Assembly: GCA_000092065.1 (NCBI GenBank)
Contig: CP000599.1
Source of the DNA: Ostreococcus lucimarinus
Lineage: Eukaryota
Direction: 5' to 3' (one strand)
Length of the DNA stretch: 64,000 bases
Below the pieces are notes generated by a model. It saw nothing but the letters and a program-made list of their open reading frames with translations, did not search any database and was not told the origin of the DNA. Within the stretch, counting starts at the first letter, position 1. Each line of letters starts with the position of its first letter. Both the position numbers and the translations under genes were made by a program. Below, one piece after another: positions 31,513 to 49,298 of this stretch.

Positions 31513-32793
31513 TCACAAGTACTCGTTCGCCTTCATCTCCGCGAGCTCGGGTAAGGACACTTCGATCTCGATTTCTTCCTCCTCGCCCTTGGCCGCGAAC
31601 GACGACGTCTTGATCGTCCACGGTCCGCGGGGCTTGCGAACCTCGGTCAAGTCACCGTTTTCGCCCGCGGGCGCGCATTCGAATCCTTCGTCGCGTCGCG
31701 CCAATTGCGCGACGGCTTTCATCGCGAGTTCGAACGCCTGAAGCTCGATGATCGCCGGTCGGGAAATCTCGAGATTGTCGCCGGATTCCTCGTCTAGGGC
31801 GATTTTAAAGAATAGCGGCCACAACACGCCGCCGACTTCACCCTCCGCCGCGACTAACGGCCAATCGTGCGCGTCGCGCGCGTCTAAATCCTCGAAAGGC
31901 GTCTCCACAGCGCTCGAAAACATGCACGTCTGCCCCTCCAAGCTCGGCTCGACGTCCTCGTTCCCGTGCTCGACCTCAAACGCCACCTGCGCATCCTTCA
32001 GCGTCTTGTGCACGTTGAATCCGAAGTTTTCATCCTCGAACGTCCCATCGAACGCGACGAAGCACGTCAACCGCATCGTGACGTCGTCGCGCAGCATTAA
32101 CCGGTACGCGATTTTCACCGGTCGACGCCGTTCAAGCTTACGCCGAATCCCGCACTCAGCGAACGCCTTCGCCGCGCCGAATAAACTCGCACCGAACCGA
32201 GGCGTGAACCCATCGATGGATTCCATCAATCCCGGCAAATGCTGCGTCCCCCAGACCTCGTCATTCTCGCTCGGCCGCATCTGCGGCTCGATTTGCCCTC
32301 GCACCACGTCTCGCAACACGCTCTCCGGCACCGGCGCGAAACTCACATCTCGCACGCTCGGTATTTTCGCCATCACCCCATCTCGGCATCCATTGACATA
32401 CTTACACCCATCGAACGAATCCCACTCCTCGAGCGATTTCCCCGCCAGCGCGCGCGCCGTCGCCGTGCACGCGAACGCCACGCGCGTCGGCTTCGCCGTC
32501 GTCCCCTCGCCGTCGCCCTTTTTGCTCGAATTCAGCACCTTTGGATTTTCCGCGACGCGAGACAGAAATTCGACAACCTCTTCGCACGTCGGTTCGTCGT
32601 ACACCACGTTCCCGCGCTCGTCGTCGCCGTGCGCGTGCGACAGAAATTCTCCAGTCTGCGTGCGGATGACCAAAATCAGCGTTGGACGCGTCGGTTCTTG
32701 CTCCTCGGGCGCCTTCTCGCGCGTGTCTTCCGTCGGCACCCAGGCGCGAAGTTTATGCACGTACACGTGCCACGTCACGGCGTCGCTCGCCAT
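31513..32793 (-). CDS. conserved hypothetical protein (acidic C-terminus)
   Basis: Portion of ORF 31513..33222 from the first plausible ATG (MASDAVTWHVYVHKL). No family recognised. Confidence 0.4.
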   Translation of the reverse strand: MASDAVTWHVYVHKLRAWVPTEDTREKAPEEQEPTRPTLILVIRTQTGEFLSHAHGDDERGNVVYDEPTCEEVVEFLSRVAENPKVLNSSKKGDGEGTTAKPTRVAFACTATARALAGKSLEEWDSFDGCKYVNGCRDGVMAKIPSVRDVSFAPVPESVLRDVVRGQIEPQMRPSENDEVWGTQHLPGLMESIDGFTPRFGASLFGAAKAFAECGIRRKLERRRPVKIAYRLMLRDDVTMRLTCFVAFDGTFEDENFGFNVHKTLKDAQVAFEVEHGNEDVEPSLEGQTCMFSSAVETPFEDLDARDAHDWPLVAAEGEVGGVLWPLFFKIALDEESGDNLEISRPAIIELQAFELAMKAVAQLARRDEGFECAPAGENGDLTEVRKPRGPWTIKTSSFAAKGEEEEIEIEVSLPELAEMKANEYL

Positions 32794-32908
32794 CGCGCGC
32801 GCGTTCGAAGCGTCGCGAAGTGCGGTGAGGTTTGTCCCGGTGTCCCGCGTCGGGACGCGAAACGCGCCCGCACATCGCGGCGGGCGTCCATGCGGCGCGC
32901 GCGACGCG

Positions 32909-34033
32909 ATGGCGACGTGTGAATGGACGCGCGCGATCGTTCGAGCGCGCGCCGCGCGCGCGGAGAGGCGCGCAGACGACGCGCGGGGAGGATTTCGAGC
33001 GCAAAAAGTGCGCTCGCGCGCTCGGGCTGGCGCGGGAAAGCGACGCGCGCGGGCCAACGCGACGGTTCGCGCGAGCGAAAACGACGAAAGCGGCGCGGCG
33101 TCGAACGCGAGCGTCCGCGAGAGCGAGCCGTATGGGGAAAACGCGGCGAAAAACGCGGCGTATAAGGCTTCGATGTCGGACGCGCAGCTCGAGCTGCATC
33201 GCGCTTCGGGACGCGACGTCACGTACGCGCTGAAGATTTCGTACGATGGCGAGCGTTATAATGGATTTCAGTACCAAGGCGAAGACGTGCCGACGATTCA
33301 GCGCGAACTCGAGCGCGCGCTCGCGAAGCTGACCGGGATCGATCGAGAACGGCTTCGATTGGGCGCCGCCGGTCGCACCGACGCCGGCGTGCACGCGCGA
33401 GGGCAAGTCGCGCACTTTTATTGCGAAAAATCGTTAGGAGAAGACTTGACGCGGTGTCAAAAGGCGATGAACGGGATGTTACCGAAAGACATTCGCGTCG
33501 ACGCGTTCTGGGAACCCCATCCGTTGTTTCATTCGAGATTTCACGCGAGCGGCAAGACGTACCACTACTACGTGGACGCGCGCGCGACGTCGAGCCCGTT
33601 CACGAGAAAGTACGCGCATCAGGTCGGATGGCGCCCGTGCGACGTCGAACTGTTGCGTCAAGCCGCGCAGTTGTTCGTCGGGACGATGGATTACAAAGGG
33701 TTTTGCAACACGTCGAGGGATAAATCAAACGAGGACAGGAACACGACGCGAACGATTCGTCGCTTCGACGTCTTCGAGGACGCCGCGGACGACGGATTGA
33801 TTCGTCTCGAGGTCGAGGGCGACGGATTTTTGTATCGTCAAGTGCGCAACATGGTCGGCGCGCTCTTGGTCGTCGCGAGCGGCAAGCACGACCTGGCGTA
33901 CCTGCGAACGCTCATCGAAACCAAGGATCGCTCGCGCGCGCCCATGGGCGCGCCCGCGCGCGGCTTGTTTCTTCACGAAGTCTTCTACCCGACCGAGGTC
34001 TTAGCGAGACCTCGTTCGGACGACACCGCTTAA
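32909..34033 (+). CDS. tRNA pseudouridine synthase, TruA/PUS family
   Basis: YALKISYDGERYNGFQYQ...LGAAGRTDAGVHARGQVAHF contains the catalytic Asp in the GRTDxGVHA motif of TruA. The 5' 1.1 kb of ORF 31748..34033 is antisense artefact. ATG candidates are 32909 and 33173. Confidence 0.75.
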   Translation: MATCEWTRAIVRARAARAERRADDARGGFRAQKVRSRARAGAGKRRARANATVRASENDESGAASNASVRESEPYGENAAKNAAYKASMSDAQLELHRASGRDVTYALKISYDGERYNGFQYQGEDVPTIQRELERALAKLTGIDRERLRLGAAGRTDAGVHARGQVAHFYCEKSLGEDLTRCQKAMNGMLPKDIRVDAFWEPHPLFHSRFHASGKTYHYYVDARATSSPFTRKYAHQVGWRPCDVELLRQAAQLFVGTMDYKGFCNTSRDKSNEDRNTTRTIRRFDVFEDAADDGLIRLEVEGDGFLYRQVRNMVGALLVVASGKHDLAYLRTLIETKDRSRAPMGAPARGLFLHEVFYPTEVLARPRSDDTA

Positions 34034-34116: not shown

Positions 34117-34819
34117 CTAACCGTCGCGTTTGCGCCGCTCGCCCTCCTCGCGCTGCGCCCTCGCCACGTCCTCGTCCTCCCCCGCGTCCAGCATCTCCTG
34201 CACCATCGCCCCCACCACGTTATCCCCGTCCGTCGCCAAGTAATGCGCGTAGTGCGCGTGCAAACACTTCACCTGTATCAGCAGCCCCGTCCCGCCGACG
34301 TCGTCCCGCGCGTACCCCCCCACGCCTCGATCCCGCAGCGCCTCCACGTGTTCCCCCCCCAACCGCTCGCACATCTCCCGCTCTTTCCCCGTCAACAATC
34401 CCCATCGCATCGCCGCGTACCGTCTCTGCTGCGCGTCGAAGATTCGCGCCGTCGCCTCGTCGTCGTCGATTTTTCGCCGCGCCGCCGCCGCGCCGCCGCC
34501 GTGCTCCAACCTCCCGACTCGCCTGCACAGCTCGCGATCGCACAGCCACAGCGCGTTCGGCCACGGCGACTCCACCGTCGTCGACCCGCGCCATTTCTTC
34601 GCTCGCGCGCGCCGTCGCGCGCGCTCGTCGTCGCCGCGCGCGCGCTGCGTCCGCAGCGGTCGGCACAGCAAAACCGTCGGATTCCCGCGCGCGTCGCGCC
34701 GCGCGACGCCCAGGACGTCGACGGACCCGTCGAGGCGCTTGACGGCGCGCGCGTCGTCGATCGTCGAGGCGTCGGCGCGACGCAGCGGCGAAGCGTGCGC
34801 CAGGTAACCGTCGGGCATG
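34117..34819 (-). CDS. DUF501-like protein
   Basis: GVGGYARDDVGGTGLLIQVKCLHAHYAHYLA resembles the conserved GVGG...KCLHxH motif of DUF501. Start taken at MPDGYLAH. Confidence 0.4.
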
Positions 34820-34833
34820 CGAAGCGTCGCACA

Positions 34834-36696
34834 ATGGCGCGCTGGAAGCGCCGCGCGGCCGCCTCGCGCCGCGCGTGCGCGATCGCGGCGTGCGCGATGG
34901 TATTGTCGACCCGCACCGCGCGCGCCGCGCCGACGCGCTCCAGATTCGCGACGCGACGGCTCGACGACGATCGATTCGCGGCGCCCGTCGTGACGCGCGC
35001 GACGCCGCGGCGAGGCCACGCGAGCGGCGGCGCCGACGTCGCGGTCCGCGGCGCGCGATTCGCGTCGGACGCGTCGCGCGTGCGGTGCGCGTTCGCGTTC
35101 GACGACGGCGAGGTGGTGGTGACGCGAGCGACGGCGGCGCCGCGCGACGAGACGACGCGCGAAAGCGAACGCGTCGTCGTCTGCGTCGCGCCGCGCGCGC
35201 GACGCGGCAAACGCGGCGCGGCGCAGATATTGCTGAAAAACGGCGACGACGGCGCGTGGAGCGGGACGGCGGGGAACTGGGCGTACGGCGATGGGAACAC
35301 GTTCGCGACGTACGAGTACGACGACAGCGACCCGGGGTGCTACGGGTGTCGAGGATCGGCGACGGCGATCGCGAGTCGGCCGAGGGAGACGTGGGCGTTG
35401 GTGGGGGATCGCGCGGTGAACGCGGGACCGGCGGAGGGAGGGACGACGATTCGCGTCAAGGCGTTCGGCGCGAACGCGAACGCGAACGCGGTCGGCGGGA
35501 CGTTTTATCCGGGCGCGAATTTAAAGTGCGGCGTGGCGTGCGCGACGACGGTCGGCAGCGGATGGCTGCGGGTCACGATGCCGGCGAAGTGGATCGCGTA
35601 CGACGAGATCGAGTGCGTGACGCCGAGGTGGCCGGGGATCGGGGCGACGAGCGGGACGCCGTCGACGACGTGTCACGTTCGAGCGTCGAACGACGGCGGC
35701 GAGCGATTCGACGATCTCGTCGCGGCGGGGGGGGACGGCGATGGGACGTTCGCGACGCCGATGGCGAACGCGGCGAAGATTGACTTCACGTACGACGCGA
35801 GCGGCGCCGCGCCGAGCGTGAGCTCGGTGGAGACGTCGCGCGCGCCCGCGGCGAGCGCGCGGGGCGCGCGGGGACCGTTCGACGGCGGGACCGTGGTCAC
35901 CGTGCGAGGGAGCGGGTTTTTATCGAGCTCGAACTTGGCGTGCAAATTTTTCGATCCGCTCGGGAACGAGGTCGTGGTGCGCGCCTCGTACGAGAGCTCG
36001 AGCGAGGTTCGATGCGCGTCGCCGTCGCAAATCGCGAGCGTCGACCCGTACGCGGTGGATTACGTCGCGATGACGTCACCGTGCTACGCCTCCGCCGTGC
36101 ACGTGTCGAACACCGGTCTCGTCGGCTCGTGGAGCGCCGCGAACTCGGCGCCGACGGCGCAGTTCTTCTATTGCGACTTGTACGTCGACTCGAGCGCGGC
36201 GTCGGCGTCGAGCGCCGACGGGAGCGCTCTGAAACCGTTCGACACGATTCAACGCGCGCTGCAGTCAGCCTTGACCGGCGTCCAGAGCGCGAGCGACACG
36301 CACATCGGGCGCGAGTTCGCCCTCGCGAATCCCACGGCGAACGCGCTGTTGAACGCCGACGTCGTCCGGCTCGCCCCCGGCGCGTACGCCGGCGCCGGCG
36401 CCGTCAGGCTCGTCGCCGACCCCACGTCCTCGGTCCGCGTGCGCGCCGCGACGGGCGTCGCGTCCGCCGCCGCCGACCGCGCGTACATCGATTGCGAGGG
36501 CTCGAACCCACTCTTCGCCGATCTCGACGCGCAGTCGTCGTCGTCGCGCGTCGCCGTCGTCGTCGACCCCGACGTCGCCGTCGTTCGATGTCGCGACGCC
36601 GACGCGAGCGTCTACGGCGTCGAGAGTTGCGAGACCATCGTCGCGACCGATGGGTCGGGCGTCACCGCGCGGACGTGTAATTTCGCCGCCGCCTAG
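34834..36696 (+). CDS. secreted IPT/TIG-repeat protein with C-terminal beta-helix-like region
   Basis: Signal peptide MARWKRRAAASRRACAIAACAMVLS. Repeated IPT-type segments (GPAEGGTTIRVKAFGAN...; GPFDGGTVVTVRGSGFLSSSNLACKF). Cys-rich throughout. The first 590 nt of ORF 34243.. is antisense to the DUF501-like gene. Confidence 0.55.
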   Translation: MARWKRRAAASRRACAIAACAMVLSTRTARAAPTRSRFATRRLDDDRFAAPVVTRATPRRGHASGGADVAVRGARFASDASRVRCAFAFDDGEVVVTRATAAPRDETTRESERVVVCVAPRARRGKRGAAQILLKNGDDGAWSGTAGNWAYGDGNTFATYEYDDSDPGCYGCRGSATAIASRPRETWALVGDRAVNAGPAEGGTTIRVKAFGANANANAVGGTFYPGANLKCGVACATTVGSGWLRVTMPAKWIAYDEIECVTPRWPGIGATSGTPSTTCHVRASNDGGERFDDLVAAGGDGDGTFATPMANAAKIDFTYDASGAAPSVSSVETSRAPAASARGARGPFDGGTVVTVRGSGFLSSSNLACKFFDPLGNEVVVRASYESSSEVRCASPSQIASVDPYAVDYVAMTSPCYASAVHVSNTGLVGSWSAANSAPTAQFFYCDLYVDSSAASASSADGSALKPFDTIQRALQSALTGVQSASDTHIGREFALANPTANALLNADVVRLAPGAYAGAGAVRLVADPTSSVRVRAATGVASAAADRAYIDCEGSNPLFADLDAQSSSSRVAVVVDPDVAVVRCRDADASVYGVESCETIVATDGSGVTARTCNFAAA

Positions 36697-36877
36697 CCCC
36701 CGCGCGCGCGCGCCGTCGACGCGCGCGCGGCGACCCGCGACCCGTAACACCGCGCGCGTGCGCGCGCGCGTCCCGGTGGCCACCCCTTTGAGTCCCAATT
36801 CGACAACACCCCCCAAGCGCCACGGAACAGTGGTATCATCGAACCGATCGTCGAATGCCGTATTTCGATGGCACTGA

Positions 36878-37005
36878 GCCCCATTAACTCAGTTGGTTAG
36901 AGTGTAGTGCTTATATCCGCCCGGATGTGCCCGAGTCGCGCGCGCGCGCGACGGACGCCTACGCTGGAAACGCTAAAGTCGCGAGATCGAGGCTCGCATG
37001 GGGCA
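36878..37005 (+). tRNA. tRNA-Ile(UAU) with 54-nt intron (36916..36969)
   Basis: Hand-folded cloverleaf: acceptor GCCCCAT/ATGGGGC; D-arm ACTC-AGTTGGTTA-GAGT; anticodon stem TAGTG/CGCTA; loop CTTATA|A with anticodon TAT; intron immediately 3' of position 37, the canonical eukaryotic location; variable loop AAGTC; T-arm GCGAG-ATCGAGG-CTCGC; discriminator A. Followed by TTTTTT. Confidence 0.8.
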
Positions 37006-37009
37006 GCTC

Positions 37010-37015
37010 TTTTTT
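37010..37015 (+). terminator. RNA polymerase III oligo(T) terminator of the tRNA-Ile gene
   Basis: TTTTTT starts 5 nt after the tRNA discriminator base. Confidence 0.7.
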
Positions 37016-37221
37016 ATCGCGCGTCGTCGTCGTCCCGACGCGCGCGATTCGCGCGCGCGCGCGCGCGTCGCGTGCGCGACGAGCGTCCTGGAGTCGTCGC
37101 ATATAACGTATTTTAAGTGGTATCACTCGACATCTGCGTATACTATATATCGTCTGACTATAACCCATACCCGTGTGTCAGAACACCTGCATTCGCGCCA
37201 CATCGCGACGCGCACGCGTCC

Positions 37222-37749
37222 ATGGCGCCCGTCGACGGCGCGGACGACCGCGACGCCGACGCGCTCGCGTGCGGATTGCCCACGAACGTCTTCGTCCGCC
37301 CCGCGGGCGCGCGCGAACCCGCGGACGTCGTCGACGAGGTCCTGGACGCGCTGCGCCTCGACGCGCTGCGACGCAGTCACGCGCTGCGCGCGCCGCGCGA
37401 TCGCCTGCGCGTGACGCTCGCGGCGTACGCGATGGATCTGCTGTACAGATTCGCGAACGAAGCGAGGTGCGAGACGAAATCGGGGGCGATGAAGCGCGCG
37501 ATGGAGGACGCGCTGGGGCGATTCGCGTGCCCGGGGGACGCGGATTACGACTTGGCGAGCGTGTGCGCGGCGCCGAGGACGGACGAGGAGCGGGAGCGGT
37601 ATCGAAGGTTCGTGCGAAGGTGTCGAGAGGCGATCGCGGTGAGGATGGTGGAGCGGTGTTACGTCGCGGAGGATGGGACGAGGGATAAATTTTGGATGGC
37701 GTTCGCGAGGCGACGATTTTTAAACCGACCGCCGCCGAAGATTTCGTGA
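37222..37749 (+). CDS. hypothetical protein (~175 aa)
   Basis: ORF 37117..37749 trimmed to its first ATG (MAPVDGADD) downstream of an AT-rich promoter island at 37090-37200. Confidence 0.4.
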   Translation: MAPVDGADDRDADALACGLPTNVFVRPAGAREPADVVDEVLDALRLDALRRSHALRAPRDRLRVTLAAYAMDLLYRFANEARCETKSGAMKRAMEDALGRFACPGDADYDLASVCAAPRTDEERERYRRFVRRCREAIAVRMVERCYVAEDGTRDKFWMAFARRRFLNRPPPKIS

Positions 37750-37831: not shown

Positions 37832-38938
37832 CTACGAAGATGGGAACGAAAACACGTCCGCGGGATGACCGCCGTCGCCGCCGGGGTTGATTCGATTCGC
37901 TTGCTTCAACGCCAGCGCCTCCTCCTCGCGCACTTGACGAATCAGCTCGGCTTGGTGCTTCAGTCGCTCGGCGCGGTCGATGTCCAGCTGCGTCGCCGCA
38001 CGCGATGCGCTCTTTCCTTTTCGCGTCGCCGACGCGTCGCCCGCGTCCATCATCTCGACGTCGTCGGCGCTCGCCGCGTCGACGGCGCCGGCGGCGATCC
38101 ACTCGTGCGCCAACGCTTGCTCCGCGCTCAACCGCTCGTTGGCGTCGGTTTCGAGTAAACCAGCGACTAAACTCTTCGCGGGATTACTGATGAAATCCCA
38201 CACCCCGGGCTCCAAGTGATAGATGCCGTCGCGTATGTTTTGATAAAGCACGCTCTCGTCTTCGTGATCGAACGGCGAGTACCCGCTCAAGAGGGCGAAC
38301 AAAATCACCCCCACGCTCCACATGTCGCACGCGGGAGAGTAAAACTCGTTCTCGTCTTTCGACGTCTCCAATTCTAAAATCTCGGGCGCGATGTACAGCG
38401 GGCTCCCGCACACCGTTCGCATCGTCTGTCCCTCGGGCTTGAACCGCGCCAACCCGAAATCGATGAGCTTCACCGTCGGTCGATCCCCGTCGTCGCTCAA
38501 CAAAATATTCTCCAACTTCAAATCTCTGTGCACGATATCTCTCGCGTGCATGTGCGCCACGGCGTGCAACACCTGCGCGATCACCGACCGCGCCTCGTCC
38601 TCCGCGAACGACCCGACGCGCGACACGCGTTCGAGCAACTCGCCGCCCTGGACGAGTTCGCAAATCATAAACACGTTTCGATCCGTCACGTACGTCGCGT
38701 ACAGCTCCACGACATTCACGTGTCGTATCTCCGAGAGCACCTCCACCTCGCGATCGAACGATCGATCCGTCGGCGCGTACTTGCTCTTATCCACCACCTT
38801 GATGGCCACGTCTCGCCCCGTCGCCTTTTCCCGCGCGCGCGCCACCGTACTGAACCCTCCCGTACCGATCTTCTCCAGCACCTCGTACGCGTCCGTGATC
38901 GTCGTCACGTCTTTGCATCGCACGAGTTTACCCCTCAT
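37832..38938 (-). CDS. serine/threonine protein kinase (CaMK-like)
   Basis: Motifs GTGGFSTV...AIKVV (VAIK), HRDLKLENILL, DFGLA, and APE-like ...YIAPE. No EF hands. Confidence 0.85.
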   Translation of the reverse strand: MRGKLVRCKDVTTITDAYEVLEKIGTGGFSTVARAREKATGRDVAIKVVDKSKYAPTDRSFDREVEVLSEIRHVNVVELYATYVTDRNVFMICELVQGGELLERVSRVGSFAEDEARSVIAQVLHAVAHMHARDIVHRDLKLENILLSDDGDRPTVKLIDFGLARFKPEGQTMRTVCGSPLYIAPEILELETSKDENEFYSPACDMWSVGVILFALLSGYSPFDHEDESVLYQNIRDGIYHLEPGVWDFISNPAKSLVAGLLETDANERLSAEQALAHEWIAAGAVDAASADDVEMMDAGDASATRKGKSASRAATQLDIDRAERLKHQAELIRQVREEEALALKQANRINPGGDGGHPADVFSFPSS

Positions 38939-39427: not shown

Positions 39428-39958
39428 ATGACCGCGCTCGACGCCGCGGCCGCGGCGGACGAGGCGCTGTCCACGGTGTGGCGCTTCGCGACGTACGCGC
39501 TCGCGGCGCTGCTGTACGGGTTCGCGCTGTTCGTCAACCTGTACGTCCTCGCGGCGCTCGACGACCTGCAGGCGGACTTAGTGAACCCGCACGACGCGTC
39601 GAGGCGGATCAATCGATTGGTGAATCACGAGATCGCGGCGCACGCGTGCGCGAGCGCGCTGATGCTGTGCGGCGGGCACTACGCGCTGTTCGCGGCGAAC
39701 GCGCCGATGATGTACTGGGAACATAAGCGGCGCGAGGCGAGGACGCTGCGGATAGACGCGACGGAGATATTCGCGCGCGCCGATAGCGAGAGGAAGATAC
39801 GAACGCGAAAATTGGCGTTTTTAGGGGTCGTGGAGCTCATCGTGGCGTACAGGGTGACGCACAGCGCGGCGCACGCGCTGTTGACCAAGGCGGGACGGGA
39901 GGCGGCGGCGAAGATTTTGAGAGACGCCGCGCACTCGCCCATGTATCACATGTTTTGA
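39428..39958 (+). CDS. cornichon-family ER cargo receptor
   Basis: LDDLQADLVNPHDASRRINRLVNHEIAAHA matches the cornichon signature (L.DL..D..NP.D....N.LV.PE) within three predicted TM helices. Confidence 0.7.
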   Translation: MTALDAAAAADEALSTVWRFATYALAALLYGFALFVNLYVLAALDDLQADLVNPHDASRRINRLVNHEIAAHACASALMLCGGHYALFAANAPMMYWEHKRREARTLRIDATEIFARADSERKIRTRKLAFLGVVELIVAYRVTHSAAHALLTKAGREAAAKILRDAAHSPMYHMF

Positions 39959-44565: not shown

Positions 44566-47172
44566 TCATTCCTTCTTGTTGGCGTCTTGAGCGTTATTTT
44601 CTTCTCCGCCCGTCTCGACTGGCTCCGTCGTCGCGGGAGCGGGCGGGGCGGGTTCTTTCTTATACGTCGTTCCCTGAAGATTATTGATCGCCACGGTGAT
44701 ATCGGTGAGCTTGTCGATTGGACTCGTGATATCGCTCTTCATCGCGATTCGCCCCGCCTCGCGCATGCCCGTGATCCACGCCCCGTGCATCGTCGCCGGA
44801 TAGTGCCTCGTCGTCGCTTCGCCGCTGAAGTGGATGTTCCCCACCGGTTCGCTCATCTCTTCATAATCGTCCCCGGTGGCTCTCGTCGAGCACGAGCTGT
44901 AGGCGCCGAACGTGTTTTCATCCTTCCCCCACCGCGTGACGTGACTCGCCACCGGCTTGCCCACGTCTGCCTTTGGGAAAGCGCATCGCAAGTGCGCCAA
45001 CAAATCTTCCACCACCTCGTCGTCTTCGCGGCTTTCGACTTCGATCGCGGCTTCCCCGGCGCAAAGCGCCAGGATGACGTTTTCGTCGCCCTTGTTGTGG
45101 GAATATATCAAAAAGTATCGACCGCGATCGCGCGTGTGCGACTGCACGAAACCAAACGTGTCGCACTTTTCGTCCCAAAATCTTTTTTCAAAGACCAAGA
45201 TGACCTTGTTCAAGACGCCGAAATTTATGTTCTCTATGGCTTGAAGCTTGCGATGAGGCAACTCCGGGATGAAGGAAATGACGCCGCGCTTCAAAACACC
45301 CAGCGGAACGGTGACGAGGACGCAGTCGGCGATGATGTCGACTTCTCGACCGCAGTGCACGATGACGCCCTTGCCGCCGAGCGACTGAGCGTCGGTGATG
45401 GATGTCACGCGATGACGATACCAAACTCGTAAATCCTTGCTCAGGGCGTCGATGAAACGCACGTTACCACCCGGCACGACGACGTGATTACCGGTGAAAT
45501 CGTACGCGTCGTCTTGATCCCACTGCATCAACGACAACTCTTTCGCCTGCGACGCGTTGGCGAATTCCAAATTCGCGATGTGCCAGTTGTGCACGTCCTT
45601 GGCCGCGTTTCTAGTCTCCATCGGCAACTTCTCGAGCTCAACATTTATTCTCTTCTCGAGTTCGCGCCCGAGCGATGAGGCGTTGGCGATTTGTCGATCC
45701 ATCGCCACGCGAAAGAACGACATGTCTTCCAGTATTTTGTTGAAATTTTTCTCCACCATCTCGTCCACTTCGCTATCGACCGTGTCGCCGTTGCGGTCGT
45801 ACAACGGGCACTCGGGCTGAATGATGTGCGGCTTGATTCCGAGTTGACGCGCGACGACGCAGAGCGGGTTGCCATTCGACCCGCTCAAAATACTTCCTCC
45901 GAGATCGGCCCACACTTTCTTGACGTCTTTGTCGCTCTCGGTGACATTTTTAGTCTTCGTCGTTTCCTTCCCCGCCTCGTCGATAAACTCAGCCGGAAAC
46001 TCGCGCGTGTCCACGCGCCCTCCCAAACGCTCGCTCGATTCCAGAACCACCACTCTGTGCCCAAGATTTTTCAGGTGTTTCGCCGCGGCGAGTCCGGAGA
46101 TACCGGCGCCGATGACGACGACGGACATCTTTTGCGAGGTCCCTTTCTTCTCCGCGAATTCTTCAAACTTGGACGCCGTGCGCATGACGCCGTAGTTGAT
46201 GTATCCGAACATCGTGAGATATCTGTGCACCCCGTGCGCGAGGTTGATGAATTTGTTCTTGAACATGTCCGCCGCCGCCGTCGCGGACAAATACTCGCGC
46301 GGTTTAGCTCGCCATTTGACGATGAGCGCGTTCCTGATCGCGATGAAATCGCCGTCGTTGTGGGATTCGCCCGGCGGCAGGAACGCGCGCTCGACGTCGG
46401 ACAAGCCGTCGGTCTCGAGGTTTAATTCAATCGCAATTTCCAAGTCCGCCACGTCCTCCGGTCGCAGCGGTCGCGGAGCGCGCGGCGGCGGCGCGTTTTT
46501 CGCCGCGCGCGCGATCATCTCCGCCTTTCTCTCGATCTCTCGTCTGTGCAAGGCTTCCATCTCCGCCTCGTCCCCGGTTTGGACGAACACTTCCGTCAAG
46601 CGCGTGGGTTTGCGTCGCTCGCGCTGCGACGTTCGCGTCGGCGGCGTCGGCGCGTCTCCGCGCGTCTCCGGCGCGCGATCGACGACGACGTCTCCGATCT
46701 CCTCCGACGTCGTCATCTTCGCCGGCTCTCCCTTTCTGTGATGCCCCTGTCTGAGCGATTCCCCGTTCGCCGTCGCCGCCGTCGCCGTCGCCGCCTCGTC
46801 GTCGCCGCCGTCCCGCCGCCGGCGCCCGCTCGCCGCCGCCCCACCCCCTCCGCCCCCTCCCCGCGTCCCTCGATCGTCCCCGATCGATTCCTCGCGCTCC
46901 GTCTTCGCTCTCTTCCCCCCCCCCGCGTCTCCCTCCCCCTCCTCGCGCGCTCGATCCCGCGTCTCCGTCGCCCCCCCGTCTCGCCCGCCCGCCCGCCCGC
47001 GCTCGCGTCCGCGCGCGCCTCCCTCCCCCGTCCCATCCCGCGCCTCCCTCGCGCCCTCGCTCGCGTCCATCTCGCGCCTCGAGCTCGTCCCCTCATCGCC
47101 TCGATGCGCGAACTCCTCCGTCGCGCGTCGCACGCCGCCGAGCACGCGCCGCAGCAGCACGCCGACGCCCAT
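44566..47172 (-). CDS. LSD1: LSD1/KDM1-like flavin-dependent histone lysine demethylase (SWIRM plus amine oxidase)
   Basis: SWIRM-like region (FIAIRNALIVKWRAKPREYLSATAA...HRYLTMFGYINYG). FAD dinucleotide motif VVVIGAGISGLAAAKHL...VLESSERLGGR. The amine-oxidase domain runs to the C-terminus. N-terminal acidic/Gly-rich extension. Confidence 0.8.
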   Translation of the reverse strand: MGVGVLLRRVLGGVRRATEEFAHRGDEGTSSRREMDASEGAREARDGTGEGGARGRERGRAGGRDGGATETRDRAREEGEGDAGGGKRAKTEREESIGDDRGTRGGGGGGGAAASGRRRRDGGDDEAATATAATANGESLRQGHHRKGEPAKMTTSEEIGDVVVDRAPETRGDAPTPPTRTSQRERRKPTRLTEVFVQTGDEAEMEALHRREIERKAEMIARAAKNAPPPRAPRPLRPEDVADLEIAIELNLETDGLSDVERAFLPPGESHNDGDFIAIRNALIVKWRAKPREYLSATAAADMFKNKFINLAHGVHRYLTMFGYINYGVMRTASKFEEFAEKKGTSQKMSVVVIGAGISGLAAAKHLKNLGHRVVVLESSERLGGRVDTREFPAEFIDEAGKETTKTKNVTESDKDVKKVWADLGGSILSGSNGNPLCVVARQLGIKPHIIQPECPLYDRNGDTVDSEVDEMVEKNFNKILEDMSFFRVAMDRQIANASSLGRELEKRINVELEKLPMETRNAAKDVHNWHIANLEFANASQAKELSLMQWDQDDAYDFTGNHVVVPGGNVRFIDALSKDLRVWYRHRVTSITDAQSLGGKGVIVHCGREVDIIADCVLVTVPLGVLKRGVISFIPELPHRKLQAIENINFGVLNKVILVFEKRFWDEKCDTFGFVQSHTRDRGRYFLIYSHNKGDENVILALCAGEAAIEVESREDDEVVEDLLAHLRCAFPKADVGKPVASHVTRWGKDENTFGAYSSCSTRATGDDYEEMSEPVGNIHFSGEATTRHYPATMHGAWITGMREAGRIAMKSDITSPIDKLTDITVAINNLQGTTYKKEPAPPAPATTEPVETGGEENNAQDANKKE

Positions 47173-47670
47173 CGCTTCGTCGCGAACGCGCGTTTAATTT
47201 TTACCCCTATTGAGCGATCCCGCGTGCTCTTCGACCGATTCCCACGCGTGCCGCGTCGTAAAAATACCCGCTTTCGGGCGATCGCGCGCTCGCGAAAGTT
47301 TCGCCGCGCGCGCGACCGCGGTCGTCGTCGCGAAGCGATTTTTGCCCCGAATCCAACGAATTCGCGCCCTGGAGATGGATGGATCGTCGAGCGCCCTCGA
47401 TCGGCGACGCTTTCGAGCCGCGAGACGCGCTCGACGGCGCGACGCGGCTCGAAGCGCGAGCGATCGCGCGCGATCGCGTCGTCGATCGCGCGCGGCGCGG
47501 TCGCGAATCCGCGATCGGCGTCGGCCGTCGTCGAATCCGCGGCGCGATGTGGCGACGATCCGGGCCGCGTCGGCGGTTTCGCGTGCTTCTATACGATGTT
47601 TTAGTGCGTATTACGGTATCGAAACGCCCCGTTCGTTTACGTACACGTCGGCGCGTCGCGTCGACGGGCG

Positions 47671-47896
47671 TCGCGGATTCTCCTACTGATGGGTGTCGCG
47701 GGGCGTTTTATGCGGTACTGAGTATCGTATTTTAGGTATACGTCATTCGATGCGCGGCGCGCGCATCGCGGATCCGCGTGTGGTCGCGGATTCTCCTACT
47801 GATGGGTGTCGCGGGGCGTTTTATGCGGTACTGAGTATCGTATTTTAGGTATACGTCATTCGATGCGTGGAGCGCGCATCGCGAACGCGCGGCGGC
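47671..47896. repeat. 113-bp tandem duplication (2 copies) in a ~1.1-kb gene-free gap
   Basis: tcgcggattctcctactgatgggtgtcgcggggcgttttatgcggtactgagtatcgtattttaggtatacgtcattcgatgcg... repeated at 47671 and 47784. Contains a CUGAUGG (C-box-like) and a CUGA (D-box) motif. Confidence 0.8.
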
Positions 47897-48329
47897 GCCG
47901 CGGATCCCGACGCGCGGCGCGACCGGCGCGGCGCGGCGCGGCGTCGAGCGTCGGAACGCGCGTCTCGCGTCGACGCGCGGGTCCGCGACTTCCGACGCCG
48001 CGCGAACGGCGCCGCGGACGCGGGATCTCGAACGCGACGACATGCCGTTTCAAATCTACGTCGCGGGACAGCGCCTCGCGTCGGACGCGGTGCTGAGCGA
48101 CGCGTGGCGAGCGAGCGACGCGCGCGCGCGATTGAAACGACCGAGCGCGACGGACGCGGACGGCGACGACTCGGACGGCGATGGGCGGGACCGCGGGACG
48201 CGGGACGACGGGGCGAGGGCGAAGCGCGCGGCGCGGTGACGGACGAAGACGGACGACGCGCGAGCGCGCGCGCGAAAAGGGTTCGAATGGGATGTATTTT
48301 TTTTTAATGATCAAACGAAGATGGATTCG

Positions 48330-49298
48330 TCACGACGGGTCGAGGGCGAGGGGGACCCAACGCTCGAACGCGGCGGGCGAGCCGTACCACGCGCGACCGG
48401 CGGCGTCGTCGGCGCCGAGAGGGGTGTGATAGACGTCGTCCAACACGACGTGACGCGCGCCGTCCATGAGGGCGGACTCGACGGGCGTGATGCCGTCGCC
48501 GTCGACGGCGGCGCGGCCGCACACTTGCTTGTATCCCTGGCCGAGCGCGAACGCGCCCGCGCTCGCGACGCCGTCGAGCGTCTCCGCGCCGCGCGCGTAT
48601 TTCCCAGCCACGCACACGCACTCGATGCCGAGATCGCGCGTCAGTTCGCTCGCCGAGCGACAATTCTCGTCGACGTACGTCAGGATCCCTCGCGTTTGAT
48701 CGACGACGCCCGGGACGTCGCGCGGCGCCGGTTTCATCGGCGAGCCCAGCGTCACCAGTCGCGCGATTCGCCCCACGATCGCCTCGCTCGCGTGTTCGTC
48801 GATGAAAACGCGCGCGAGCCATCCTCCGGCGCTGTGCGCGCACAGTATCAGCGCGACGTCGTCGTCGTCGCGCGTCGCTTCCTCGCACGCGTTCGCGAGC
48901 GCGTCTAAATACCAGTTCACCGTCGGTTTCGGTCGCAGCGTCCCGCGCCAGTACGCCGGCGTCGCCGCGCCGGCGGCGTTGCGGAGCCAATCGACGCGTC
49001 GCACGTCGGCGATCGTCGCGCCGTGCCCGCGCGCGCGCAGGAGCGCGGCGAAGGCGTCGTAATCCGTCCCGGCGTTCCCGAGACCGGGACAGATGACGAC
49101 GTGCGGCTTCGCGGCCGCGCAGCGCGTCGCGCGCGCGCAGAAGCGACGCGGGCGACGCGAAGACCGCTCGCGCGCGTCGAGGCGCGCGCTCGCGGCGAGC
49201 GCGAGCGCGCGCGACGACATGACGCGACGAGGAGTGCCGACGAACGCGGCGAGCGCGACGAACCGCGGGACGAACGAACGACGCGTGAATGAATGCAT
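48330..49298 (-). CDS. alpha/beta-hydrolase-fold protein (lipase/PGAP1-DUF676-like) with N-terminal presequence
   Basis: GxSxG nucleophile elbow in LILCAHSAGGWLARVF and an N-terminal R/A/S-rich leader. Confidence 0.55.
   Translation of the reverse strand: MHSFTRRSFVPRFVALAAFVGTPRRVMSSRALALAASARLDARERSSRRPRRFCARATRCAAAKPHVVICPGLGNAGTDYDAFAALLRARGHGATIADVRRVDWLRNAAGAATPAYWRGTLRPKPTVNWYLDALANACEEATRDDDDVALILCAHSAGGWLARVFIDEHASEAIVGRIARLVTLGSPMKPAPRDVPGVVDQTRGILTYVDENCRSASELTRDLGIECVCVAGKYARGAETLDGVASAGAFALGQGYKQVCGRAAVDGDGITPVESALMDGARHVVLDDVYHTPLGADDAAGRAWYGSPAAFERWVPLALDPS

What the first reader, a model, noticed from the sequence alone, without database searches (positions are those of the whole stretch)
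36878..37015. Intron-containing tRNA-Ile(UAU) gene hidden under spurious ORFs
A complete cloverleaf folds by hand: a 7-bp acceptor stem, D-arm, anticodon stem TAGTG/CGCTA, anticodon UAU, a T-arm with TCGA core, and discriminator A. The 54-nt intron sits exactly one nucleotide 3' of the anticodon. tRNA-Ile(UAU) is the isoacceptor that almost universally carries an intron in eukaryotes, and a T6 Pol III terminator follows. The ORF track shows only meaningless 60-70 aa ORFs here. The gene sits between two Pol II promoters.
Basis: seen in the sequence. Interest (0 to 1): 0.5.

Follow-up and report, generated by a model that had tools for sequence, protein, structure and literature searches.

The report
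Intron-containing tRNA-Ile(UAU) gene, Ostreococcus
This is a real but ordinary nuclear gene for the isoleucine tRNA that reads the AUA codon, split by a 54-base intron at the standard eukaryotic position, in the green picoalga Ostreococcus lucimarinus; it only looks hidden because default tRNA finders skip genes with introns.

Summary
Window 36878-37005 (+) encodes a 74-nt tRNA. The 5' exon is 36878-36915, the intron is 36916-36969 (54 nt, between positions 37 and 38), and the 3' exon is 36970-37005. A T6 run follows at 37010-37015.

- **Model score:** Rfam's tRNA model scores 44.7 bits (gathering score 29, E 1.4e-8) when the region is searched alone. ARAGORN finds the same ends only when intron search is switched on.
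- **Mislabel resolved:** ARAGORN places the intron elsewhere and calls the gene Ser(tga). Comparative data settle it as Ile(UAU).
- **Comparative support:** 34 distinct intron-bearing homologues, including this gene, come from marine metagenomes. About 35 of the fetched loci sit beside the same kinase and ARPC3 genes. All break after CTTATA. Introns run from 36 to 155 nt and are mostly unrelated in sequence. G occupies intron position -3 in 38 of 39 distinct introns. Intronless homologues read GTGCTTATAACGC without interruption.
- **Covariation:** 99.2% of cells are paired and 12 of 21 pairs show double changes.
- **Source:** The window is Ostreococcus lucimarinus nuclear DNA.

The gene lies between one gene's 3' end and ARPC3's start, not between two promoters. 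Ile(UAU) introns are not near-universal, since land plants lack them. The finding is known biology and of low interest.

The parts
36878..36915 (+). 5' exon of tRNA-Ile(UAU), tRNA positions 1-37. It holds the acceptor 5' strand, the D arm, the anticodon stem 5' strand and loop bases C32 U33 U34 A35 U36 A37.
   Evidence: Rfam RF00005 alignment. ARAGORN -i gives the same ends. 94-97% identical to the 5' exons of syntenic orthologues.
36885..36896 (+). A-box region of the internal Pol III promoter (TAACTCAGTTGG, positions 8-19).
   Evidence: Read from the sequence. These columns do not vary in the 34-sequence alignment, but the search pattern fixed most of them. The A-box assignment comes from established knowledge of tRNA gene promoters.
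36912..36914 (+). Anticodon TAT (UAU), which reads the AUA isoleucine codon.
   Evidence: The same CTTATA|A loop is continuous in 24 distinct intronless homologues and is rebuilt by 37/38 splicing in all 34 intron-bearing ones.
36916..36969 (+). 54-nt intron at the canonical position 37/38. Bases 36916-36918, together with U34-A37, pair with 36923-36929 to form an anticodon-intron helix. A (CG)n hairpin occupies 36935-36952. G at 36967 (intron -3) can pair with C32.
   Evidence: for the length. Orthologue introns of 36-155 nt sit at the same site, with G at -3 in 38 of 39 distinct introns.
36970..37005 (+). 3' exon, tRNA positions 38-73: A38, anticodon stem 3' strand, variable loop AAGTC, T arm, acceptor 3' strand and discriminator A73. 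CCA is not encoded.
   Evidence: Compensatory changes in the stems are shown.
36984..36994 (+). B-box region (AGATCGAGGCT, positions 52-62). It departs from the GGTTCGANNCC consensus at positions 52, 54 and 62. Positions 52 and 62 still pair with each other, as A-U.
   Evidence: Read from the sequence. A54 also occurs in several orthologues. The consensus is from established knowledge.
37010..37015 (+). TTTTTT run, the Pol III terminator, 4 nt after the discriminator.
   Evidence: Most intron-bearing homologues also have a run of four or more T within about 20 nt after the gene.

Best explanation
This is a functional, single-copy-in-window nuclear gene for the minor isoleucine tRNA with anticodon UAU, in Ostreococcus lucimarinus.

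[quoted passage not shown] It is conserved, with compensatory stem changes, across many Mamiellales-like lineages at the same chromosomal spot. The splice-site context is also conserved: an anticodon-intron helix and G at intron -3, opposite C32.

Inferred from established knowledge of eukaryotic tRNA biogenesis:
1. RNA polymerase III transcribes the gene from internal A and B boxes and stops at the T6 run.
2. RNase P trims the 5' leader and RNase Z trims the 3' trailer, and CCA is added.
3. The tRNA splicing endonuclease cuts at 37/38, measuring from the mature domain and using the C32:G(-3) anticodon-intron pair at the 3' site. A tRNA ligase then joins the halves.
4. The mature tRNA decodes AUA.

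Inferred by analogy with yeast only: the intron, which holds U34-A35-U36 in a helix, serves as the substrate context for pseudouridylation of U34 and U36 before splicing.
For: - **Model match:** Rfam tRNA model, 44.7 bits against a gathering score of 29, E 1.4e-8, full-length match with a single 55-nt insertion in the anticodon loop.
- **Independent finder:** ARAGORN -i gives the same ends and a 54-nt intron.
- **Source organism:** the adjacent kinase is 100% identical to an NCBI O. lucimarinus CCE9901 protein.
- **Orthologues:** loci fetched through kinase relatives (70-78% identity) carry a tRNA at the same place. ARAGORN calls it Ile(tat), with introns of 40, 89/90 and over 120 nt.
- **Wider family:** an exon-1 pattern scan of metagenomes gave 120 loci. 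They include 34 distinct intron-bearing genes, this one among them. All are interrupted directly after CTTATA, and the introns run from 36 to 155 nt. G is at intron -3 in 38 of 39 distinct introns. A further 24 distinct intronless homologues read ...GTGCTTATAACGC....
- **Covariation on the cloverleaf:** 99.2% of cells are paired against 84.5% in shuffles. Twelve of 21 pairs change on both sides. None of 500 shuffles reaches the observed values, and slid controls pair 31-48%.
- **Synteny:** kinase-ARPC3-tRNA is found in about 35 loci.
- **Population variants:** O. lucimarinus-type variants L061 and L074 differ from the window only inside the intron hairpin loop, and their exons are identical.
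- **Intron structure:** constrained folds show the anticodon paired with the 5' part of the intron in all eight lineages tested.
- **Literature:** O. tauri is reported to have unusually long tRNA introns of about 64 nt (PMC13578239). Yeast Pus1 makes psi34 and psi36 of tRNA-Ile(UAU) only on the intron-containing precursor (PMC9602550, citing Szweykowska-Kulinska 1994).
Against: - No expression or splicing data are available here.
- The unconstrained minimum-energy fold of the precursor is not the cloverleaf. It scores -51.6 against -46.8 kcal/mol for the constrained cloverleaf. An intron segment, GCCUACGCU, competes for the 5' strand of the anticodon stem and the 3' strand of the D stem. The fold z-score is only -1.4.
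- The B box departs from consensus at three positions, including A54 in place of T54.
- ARAGORN's own label for this gene is Ser(tga).
- The metagenome homologues were retrieved with a pattern that fixes most of positions 9-37. D-arm and anticodon-loop conservation in that set is therefore partly built in.
- Intron-dependent pseudouridylation is an analogy. The red alga C. merolae already departs from the yeast rule (PMC9602550).
Confidence: 0.95

Rival explanations
1. It is a tRNA with anticodon UGA (serine), carrying a 54-nt intron at a non-canonical site inside the anticodon. The exon junction would be CTT|GAAA, as ARAGORN labels it.
For: ARAGORN -i output: tRNA-Ser(tga), intron 36913-36966. 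Non-canonical tRNA introns do exist in some unicellular algae (PMC13578239).
Against: - The body has a 5-nt variable loop, whereas cytosolic tRNA-Ser carries a long extra arm (established knowledge).
- In orthologues the bases before exon 2 are GGCA, GTGA or GCGA rather than GAAA. The ARAGORN junction would therefore give a different anticodon in each lineage, while the 37/38 junction gives UAU in all 34.
- ARAGORN itself calls the orthologues Ile(tat).
- Intronless homologues read CTTATAA continuously.
- The conserved G at intron -3 fits the 37/38 site.
Confidence: 0.01
2. It is a decaying tRNA pseudogene or a tRNA-derived repeat that is no longer expressed or functional.
For: - B-box departures (A52, A54, T62).
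- The GC-rich intron offers a competing fold that is more stable than the cloverleaf.
- No expression data are available.
Against: - All 21 stem pairs are intact.
- The A52-T62 change is compensated.
- A54 recurs in several lineages whose genes are otherwise intact.
- The gene is kept at the same syntenic position across lineages whose flanking proteins have diverged to 63-78% identity.
- Stems change by compensatory substitutions.
- In O. lucimarinus-type population variants, the exons are identical while the intron varies.
- A terminator is present.
- It is the only tRNA-Ile(UAU) candidate in the window.
Confidence: 0.03
3. It is a chance cloverleaf in GC-rich intergenic DNA.
For: GC-rich, repeat-like flanks make many spurious helices. 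ARAGORN with long introns allowed gives two plainly spurious calls elsewhere in the window.
Against: The E-value is 1.4e-8 for the full-length tRNA model. Conserved orthologues show covariation.
Confidence: 0.005

Closest known systems
Saccharomyces cerevisiae / S. pombe nuclear tRNA-Ile(UAU) genes
   Same: Same isoacceptor. Both carry a single intron at 37/38 of similar size. In both, the anticodon is paired with the intron, and position 32 pairs with intron -3. In yeast the intron is needed for Pus1-dependent psi34 and psi36 (PMC9602550, PMC11912914).
   Different: The intron sequences are unrelated. The Ostreococcus intron is very GC-rich, with a (CG)n hairpin. The T loop has A54. Intron-dependent modification has not been tested in this alga.
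Intron-containing nuclear tRNA genes of Ostreococcus tauri and other Mamiellophyceae (Maruyama 2010; Michely 2013, PMC3673656; review PMC13578239)
   Same: Same lineage and the same class of long canonical introns (about 64 nt reported for O. tauri). The small tRNA gene set has been catalogued with tRNAscan-SE: 44 genes in O. lucimarinus and 47 in O. tauri.
   Different: I could not open the published gene tables, so I cannot confirm that this particular locus is listed there. In O. lucimarinus and its sister lineage the gene is inverted relative to its neighbours.
Prasinovirus-encoded tRNA-Ile(UAU) (OtV5, OlV1, BpV1, MpV1; PMC3673656)
   Same: Same anticodon and a very similar body. Candidate viral copies L013, L024 and L080 share 60 of 74 positions with the window's spliced tRNA, partly because of how the search pattern was built.
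   Different: The viral copies have no intron, and they sit in Asn/Tyr/Gln/Ile tRNA clusters on contigs with 38-44% G+C.
Cyanidioschyzon merolae tRNA-Ile(UAU) (PMC9602550)
   Same: An algal nuclear tRNA-Ile(UAU) with an anticodon-loop intron.
   Different: [quoted passage not shown] Its Pus1 behaves differently from the yeast enzyme. The Ostreococcus gene has only the canonical intron.

Membership tests
tRNA (Rfam RF00005) | Full-length match to the covariance model above the curated gathering score | tested here: met
   44.7 bits against 29, model positions 1-71 of 71, E 1.4e-8. The match is missed only when the whole 64 kb is scanned with the fast filters.
tRNA (Rfam RF00005) | Four cloverleaf helices supported by compensatory change in relatives | tested here: met
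   99.2% of cells are paired. Twelve of 21 pairs change on both sides. None of 500 shuffles reaches that, and slid controls pair 31-48%. The D stem is invariant and so says nothing either way, and the search pattern fixed it.
tRNA-Ile(UAU) isoacceptor | Anticodon UAU after splicing, with U33 before it and A37 after it | tested here: met
   The loop is C-U-U-A-U-A|A. The same loop is continuous in 24 distinct intronless homologues and is rebuilt in all 34 intron-bearing ones. ARAGORN calls the orthologues Ile(tat).
tRNA-Ile(UAU) isoacceptor | Class I body (short variable loop) and discriminator A73, consistent with isoleucine identity | tested here: met
   A 5-nt variable loop AAGTC and A at 37005. 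The role of A73 and the anticodon as IleRS identity elements comes from established knowledge and was not tested.
tRNA-Ile(UAU) isoacceptor | Best score with an isotype-specific model (tRNAscan-SE 2) and charging by IleRS | not testable with these tools
   tRNAscan-SE and its isotype models are not available here, and there is no biochemistry.
Canonical eukaryotic (protein-spliced) tRNA intron | Intron located between positions 37 and 38 | tested here: met
   The Rfam insertion site, and the exon boundaries shared by all 34 homologues despite introns of 36-155 nt.
Canonical eukaryotic (protein-spliced) tRNA intron | Anticodon-intron pair between position 32 and intron -3, with the 3' splice site unpaired | tested here: met
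   C32 can pair with G36967. G is at -3 in 38 of 39 distinct introns. The 3' site is single-stranded in the constrained folds.
Canonical eukaryotic (protein-spliced) tRNA intron | Strict archaeal-type bulge-helix-bulge: two 3-nt bulges separated by a 4-bp helix | tested here: not met
   Only C32:G(-3) and U33:G(-4) can pair, while U34 faces U and A35 faces C. The 5' site lies inside the anticodon-intron helix. This relaxed form is usual for eukaryotic pre-tRNAs and does not argue against splicing by the eukaryotic endonuclease.
Canonical eukaryotic (protein-spliced) tRNA intron | Actual excision in vivo | not testable with these tools
   This needs tRNA sequencing or a northern blot.
RNA polymerase III type 2 gene | Internal A and B boxes and a downstream run of at least four T | tested here: met
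   The A box TAACTCAGTTGG departs from consensus only at G10 (A here). The B box AGATCGAGGCT keeps G53, T55, C56, A58 and C61 and departs at positions 52, 54 and 62. T6 lies at 37010-37015. The consensus sequences are from established knowledge, and transcription was not tested.

The most novel reading that the evidence does not exclude
The host's only AUA-specific tRNA must pass through splicing, and perhaps through intron-dependent psi34/psi36 modification. Prasinoviruses that infect the same algae carry an intronless copy with nearly the same body. The viral copy could be a processed derivative of the host gene, either captured from spliced tRNA or having lost its intron. It would let the AT-richer virus decode AUA without relying on the host's splicing step. 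The conserved anticodon-intron helix and G(-3) across introns of 36-155 nt would then mark a modification or quality-control checkpoint that the virus bypasses.
Probability: 0.15. Interest if true: 0.45.

Novelty: already known. Interest (0 to 1): 0.12.

Why it matters
The main value is for annotation. Ostreococcus has one of the smallest eukaryotic tRNA gene sets (44 to 47 genes). The deposited annotations were reported to be insufficient to translate all codons (PMC3673656). Default settings of common tools skip this gene or give it the wrong name: ARAGORN without -i and Rfam with fast filters miss it, and ARAGORN -i calls it Ser(tga). Getting it right fills in the AUA decoder.

The comparative set assembled here is a small resource for studying what the eukaryotic splicing machinery and anticodon-modifying enzymes actually read. 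It holds one orthologous locus with introns of 36 to 155 nt, an invariant splice position, a conserved G at -3 and a conserved anticodon-intron helix. None of this changes current understanding.

Tried and rejected
1. **Default ARAGORN and the whole-window Rfam gathering scan** found nothing. The cause is intron handling and filters, not absence of the gene.
2. **ARAGORN with introns up to 3000 nt** gave two extra calls: Ser(cga) at 46630-48010 and Pro(cgg) at 47938-48958, with 'introns' of 1287 and 935 nt and mismatched stems. They disappear when the intron limit is 200 nt. I rejected them as artefacts.
3. **ARAGORN's Ser(tga) label** was rejected on comparative grounds.
4. **A link to the nearby pseudouridine synthase gene (33173-34033).** I asked whether it could be the Pus1 that would modify this tRNA. 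It is a bacterial-type TruA (psi38-40): TIGR00071 scores 167 bits, the best solved relatives are bacterial TruA, and Pus1 matches only weakly. I see no functional link.
5. **The free-energy fold of the precursor** does not give the cloverleaf and is not significantly more stable than shuffles, with a z-score of -1.4. It is uninformative for a tRNA with a GC-rich intron.
6. **The supplementary tRNA tables of Michely et al. 2013** are not held as text. I could not check whether this locus is already listed.

Full report
**What is in the sequence.** Window 36878-37005 on the + strand reads:

GCCCCAT-TA-ACTC-AGTTGGTTA-GAGT-G-TAGTG-CTTATA / 54 nt / A-CGCTA-AAGTC-GCGAG-ATCGAGG-CTCGC-ATGGGGC-A

It is followed by GCTC and TTTTTT at 37010-37015. 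That makes a complete class I cloverleaf:
- a 7-bp acceptor stem;
- a 4-bp D stem;
- a 5-bp anticodon stem with one U-G pair;
- a 5-bp T stem;
- a 5-nt variable loop;
- discriminator A.

The anticodon TAT lies at 36912-36914. The intervening 54 nt (36916-36969) lie between tRNA positions 37 and 38. A36915 and A36969 are the same base, so the cut can slide by one nucleotide without changing the product.

**Is it more than chance?** Default ARAGORN finds no tRNA in the window. The whole-window Rfam scan at gathering thresholds returns nothing. Both results reflect how introns and filters are handled.
- Searching 36800-37100 alone, the Rfam tRNA model RF00005 aligns end to end (positions 1-71). 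It scores 44.7 bits against a gathering score of 29, with E 1.4e-8 and a single 55-nt insertion in the anticodon loop.
- ARAGORN with intron search returns the same ends and a 54-nt intron.

**The ARAGORN label.** ARAGORN places the intron three bases further 5' (junction CTT|GAAA) and names the gene Ser(tga).

**Source organism and neighbours.**
- The ORF at 37832-38938 (-) is a CaMK-type kinase. It is 100% identical to an NCBI protein of Ostreococcus lucimarinus CCE9901.
- Pfam assigns 34243-36696 (+) to a TIG-domain protein, 37117-37749 (+) to ARPC3/P21-Arc, 34117-35019 (-) to DUF501, and 39428-39958 (+) to Cornichon.
- The ARPC3 ATG is at 37222.

The tRNA therefore lies 182 bp after the stop codon of a +strand gene and 217 bp before the ARPC3 start codon. 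It does not lie between two promoters. The ORFs that overlap it are short: 59-75 aa, plus a 138-aa ORF that starts inside the acceptor stem.

**Orthologues.** I fetched the contigs that encode kinase relatives of 70-78% identity. All keep the order Cornichon, kinase, ARPC3. All carry a sequence 94-97% identical to the 5' exon just beyond ARPC3. ARAGORN -i calls these Ile(tat), with introns of 40, 89/90 and over 120 nt. In a fourth lineage it fails, but the 3' exon can be read by eye after a 155-nt intron.

**A wider sample.** I scanned the metagenome collection with the pattern AACTCAGYTGGTTAGAGTGNNGTGCTTATA and obtained 120 loci.
- I located exon 2 by a sequence motif alone, without using pairing. 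This gave 34 distinct intron-bearing genes, counting the window and L003 (which I placed by hand), and 24 distinct intronless ones.
- Every intron starts directly after CTTATA and ends directly before ACGC.
- Intron lengths run from 36 to 155 nt, and the sequences are mostly unalignable between lineages.
- The intronless homologues read GTGCTTATAACGC without interruption.

Only the 37/38 junction gives the same mature loop everywhere. ARAGORN's junction would give a different anticodon in each lineage, because the bases before exon 2 are GGCA, GTGA, GCGA or GAAA. A 5-nt variable loop is also incompatible with cytosolic tRNA-Ser (established knowledge). The gene is tRNA-Ile(UAU).

**Covariation.** I counted pairs on the alignment of 34 spliced sequences (A1) using the standard cloverleaf.

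| Measure | Observed | Control |
|---|---|---|
| Cells forming a standard pair | 99.2% | 84.5% in shuffles; 31-48% when the 3' partners are slid by 1-3 columns |
| Pairs with changes on both sides | 12 of 21 | no shuffle of 500 reaches this |

- Of the 12 pairs with double changes, 6 are in the acceptor stem, 2 in the anticodon stem and 4 in the T stem.
- The D stem and most of the anticodon arm were fixed by the search pattern, so they are uninformative.

**Splice-site context.**
- G occupies intron position -3 in 38 of 39 distinct introns, and A or G occupies -4.
- In the window, G36967 can pair with C32 and G36966 with U33. This is the anticodon-intron pair that the eukaryotic splicing endonuclease uses at the 3' site (established knowledge).
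- A strict archaeal bulge-helix-bulge motif is not formed.
- With the cloverleaf enforced, all eight lineages tested fold U34-A37 plus the first intron bases into a 5-8 bp hairpin with a downstream intron segment. A second hairpin and a single-stranded 3' splice site follow.
- The paired intron segment differs between lineages (GGAUGUG, CCGUAUA, AUAUAUG and others) but stays complementary to the anticodon. The helix is therefore conserved in structure, not in sequence.
- In the window the second hairpin is a (CG)n palindrome. O. lucimarinus-type metagenome variants L061 and L074 differ from the window only in that hairpin's loop, and their exons are identical.

**Caveats.**
- The unconstrained minimum-energy fold of the 128-nt precursor is not the cloverleaf: -51.6 against -46.8 kcal/mol. 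An intron segment, GCCUACGCU, competes for the 5' strand of the anticodon stem. The fold is no more stable than shuffles, with a z-score of -1.4.
- The B box has A52, A54 and T62 in place of the consensus G, T and C. Positions 52 and 62 still pair. A54 recurs in several lineages whose genes are otherwise intact.
- There are no expression data.

**Mechanism.** The gene structure, its conservation and its splice-site signature are shown here. The following steps are inferred from general eukaryotic tRNA biology:
1. Pol III transcribes the gene from the internal A and B boxes and terminates at T6.
2. RNase P and RNase Z trim the ends, and CCA is added. The genome reads GCT after A73, so CCA is not encoded.
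3. The splicing endonuclease removes the intron and a tRNA ligase joins the exons.
4. The mature tRNA decodes AUA.

One further step is inferred only by analogy: the intron may be kept because pseudouridylation of U34 and U36 needs the intron-containing precursor, as in yeast (PMC9602550, citing Szweykowska-Kulinska et al. 1994). The red alga C. merolae already departs from that rule (PMC9602550).

**Comparison with what is known.**
- Introns at 37/38 in tRNA-Ile(UAU) are textbook in fungi and animals.
- O. tauri is described as having unusually long tRNA introns of about 64 nt, plus permuted tRNA genes (PMC13578239).
- Michely et al. catalogued 44 tRNA genes in O. lucimarinus with tRNAscan-SE. 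They noted that the deposited annotations did not cover all codons (PMC3673656). Their tables are not held here, so I could not confirm that this locus is listed.
- Land plants keep tRNA introns only in tRNA-Tyr and elongator tRNA-Met (PMC13578239).

**A lead that went nowhere.** The pseudouridine synthase gene 3 kb upstream (33173-34033) is a bacterial-type TruA for positions 38-40, not Pus1. Its proximity to the tRNA is a coincidence.

**Verdict.** This is a correct reading of an ordinary gene. Its kind is already known and its interest is low. It is useful mainly as an annotation fix and as a tidy comparative set for intron evolution at one orthologous locus.

Noticed in passing
window 36697-37221, compared with L001 7692-10136, L007 3789-5475 and L022 837-2820: In most relatives the order is kinase(+), ARPC3(-), tRNA(+), Bestrophin(+), TIG(-). 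In O. lucimarinus-type loci (window, L047, L061, L074, L127) and the sister lineage L022, the tRNA is inverted relative to its neighbours and the Bestrophin gene is absent. The TIG gene then lies directly next to the tRNA. This looks like a small inversion plus a deletion or relocation in that clade.
   Followed up: partly
L013 1396-3204; L024 67-1717; L080 5913-6643: Intronless tRNA-Ile(UAU) genes with nearly the same body as the algal gene sit next to tRNA-Asn, tRNA-Tyr and tRNA-Gln on contigs of 38-44% G+C. That matches the published prasinovirus tRNA set (PMC3673656). Host copies carry introns and the candidate viral copies do not. The similarity is partly built in by the search pattern.
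   Followed up: partly
window 36986 (tRNA position 54): The T loop begins with A instead of the near-universal T54 (ATCGAGG). About a third of the 34 intron-bearing homologues share A54, among them L004, L007, L017 and L051, while the others have TTCGA. Its effect on the T54-A58 pair and on the B box is unknown.
   Followed up: no
window 36935-36952, compared with L061 and L074: The central intron hairpin is a perfect (CG)n palindrome, GTCGCGCGCGCGCGCGAC. Metagenome variants of the same species have GTCGCGTTACCGCGCGAC or GTCGCGTTGACGCGCGAC, so the repeat tract is polymorphic while the exons are identical.
   Followed up: partly
window 36700-36770 and 37020-37075: Long alternating CG tracts and CG-rich palindromes flank the tRNA gene on both sides, for example CGCGCGCGATTCGCGCGCG at 37039-37057. 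They produce weak spurious Rfam hits.
   Followed up: no
window 47670-47883: A 113-bp unit is repeated 1.9 times at 98% identity in an AT-richer intergenic patch. It lies inside one of ARAGORN's spurious long-intron tRNA calls.
   Followed up: no
window 33173-34033 (+): A bacterial-type TruA pseudouridine(38-40) synthase, probably organelle-targeted, is embedded at the end of a much longer mechanical ORF (31748-34033). It matches TIGR00071 at 167 bits. It is syntenic with the tRNA in relatives but is not Pus1.
   Followed up: yes
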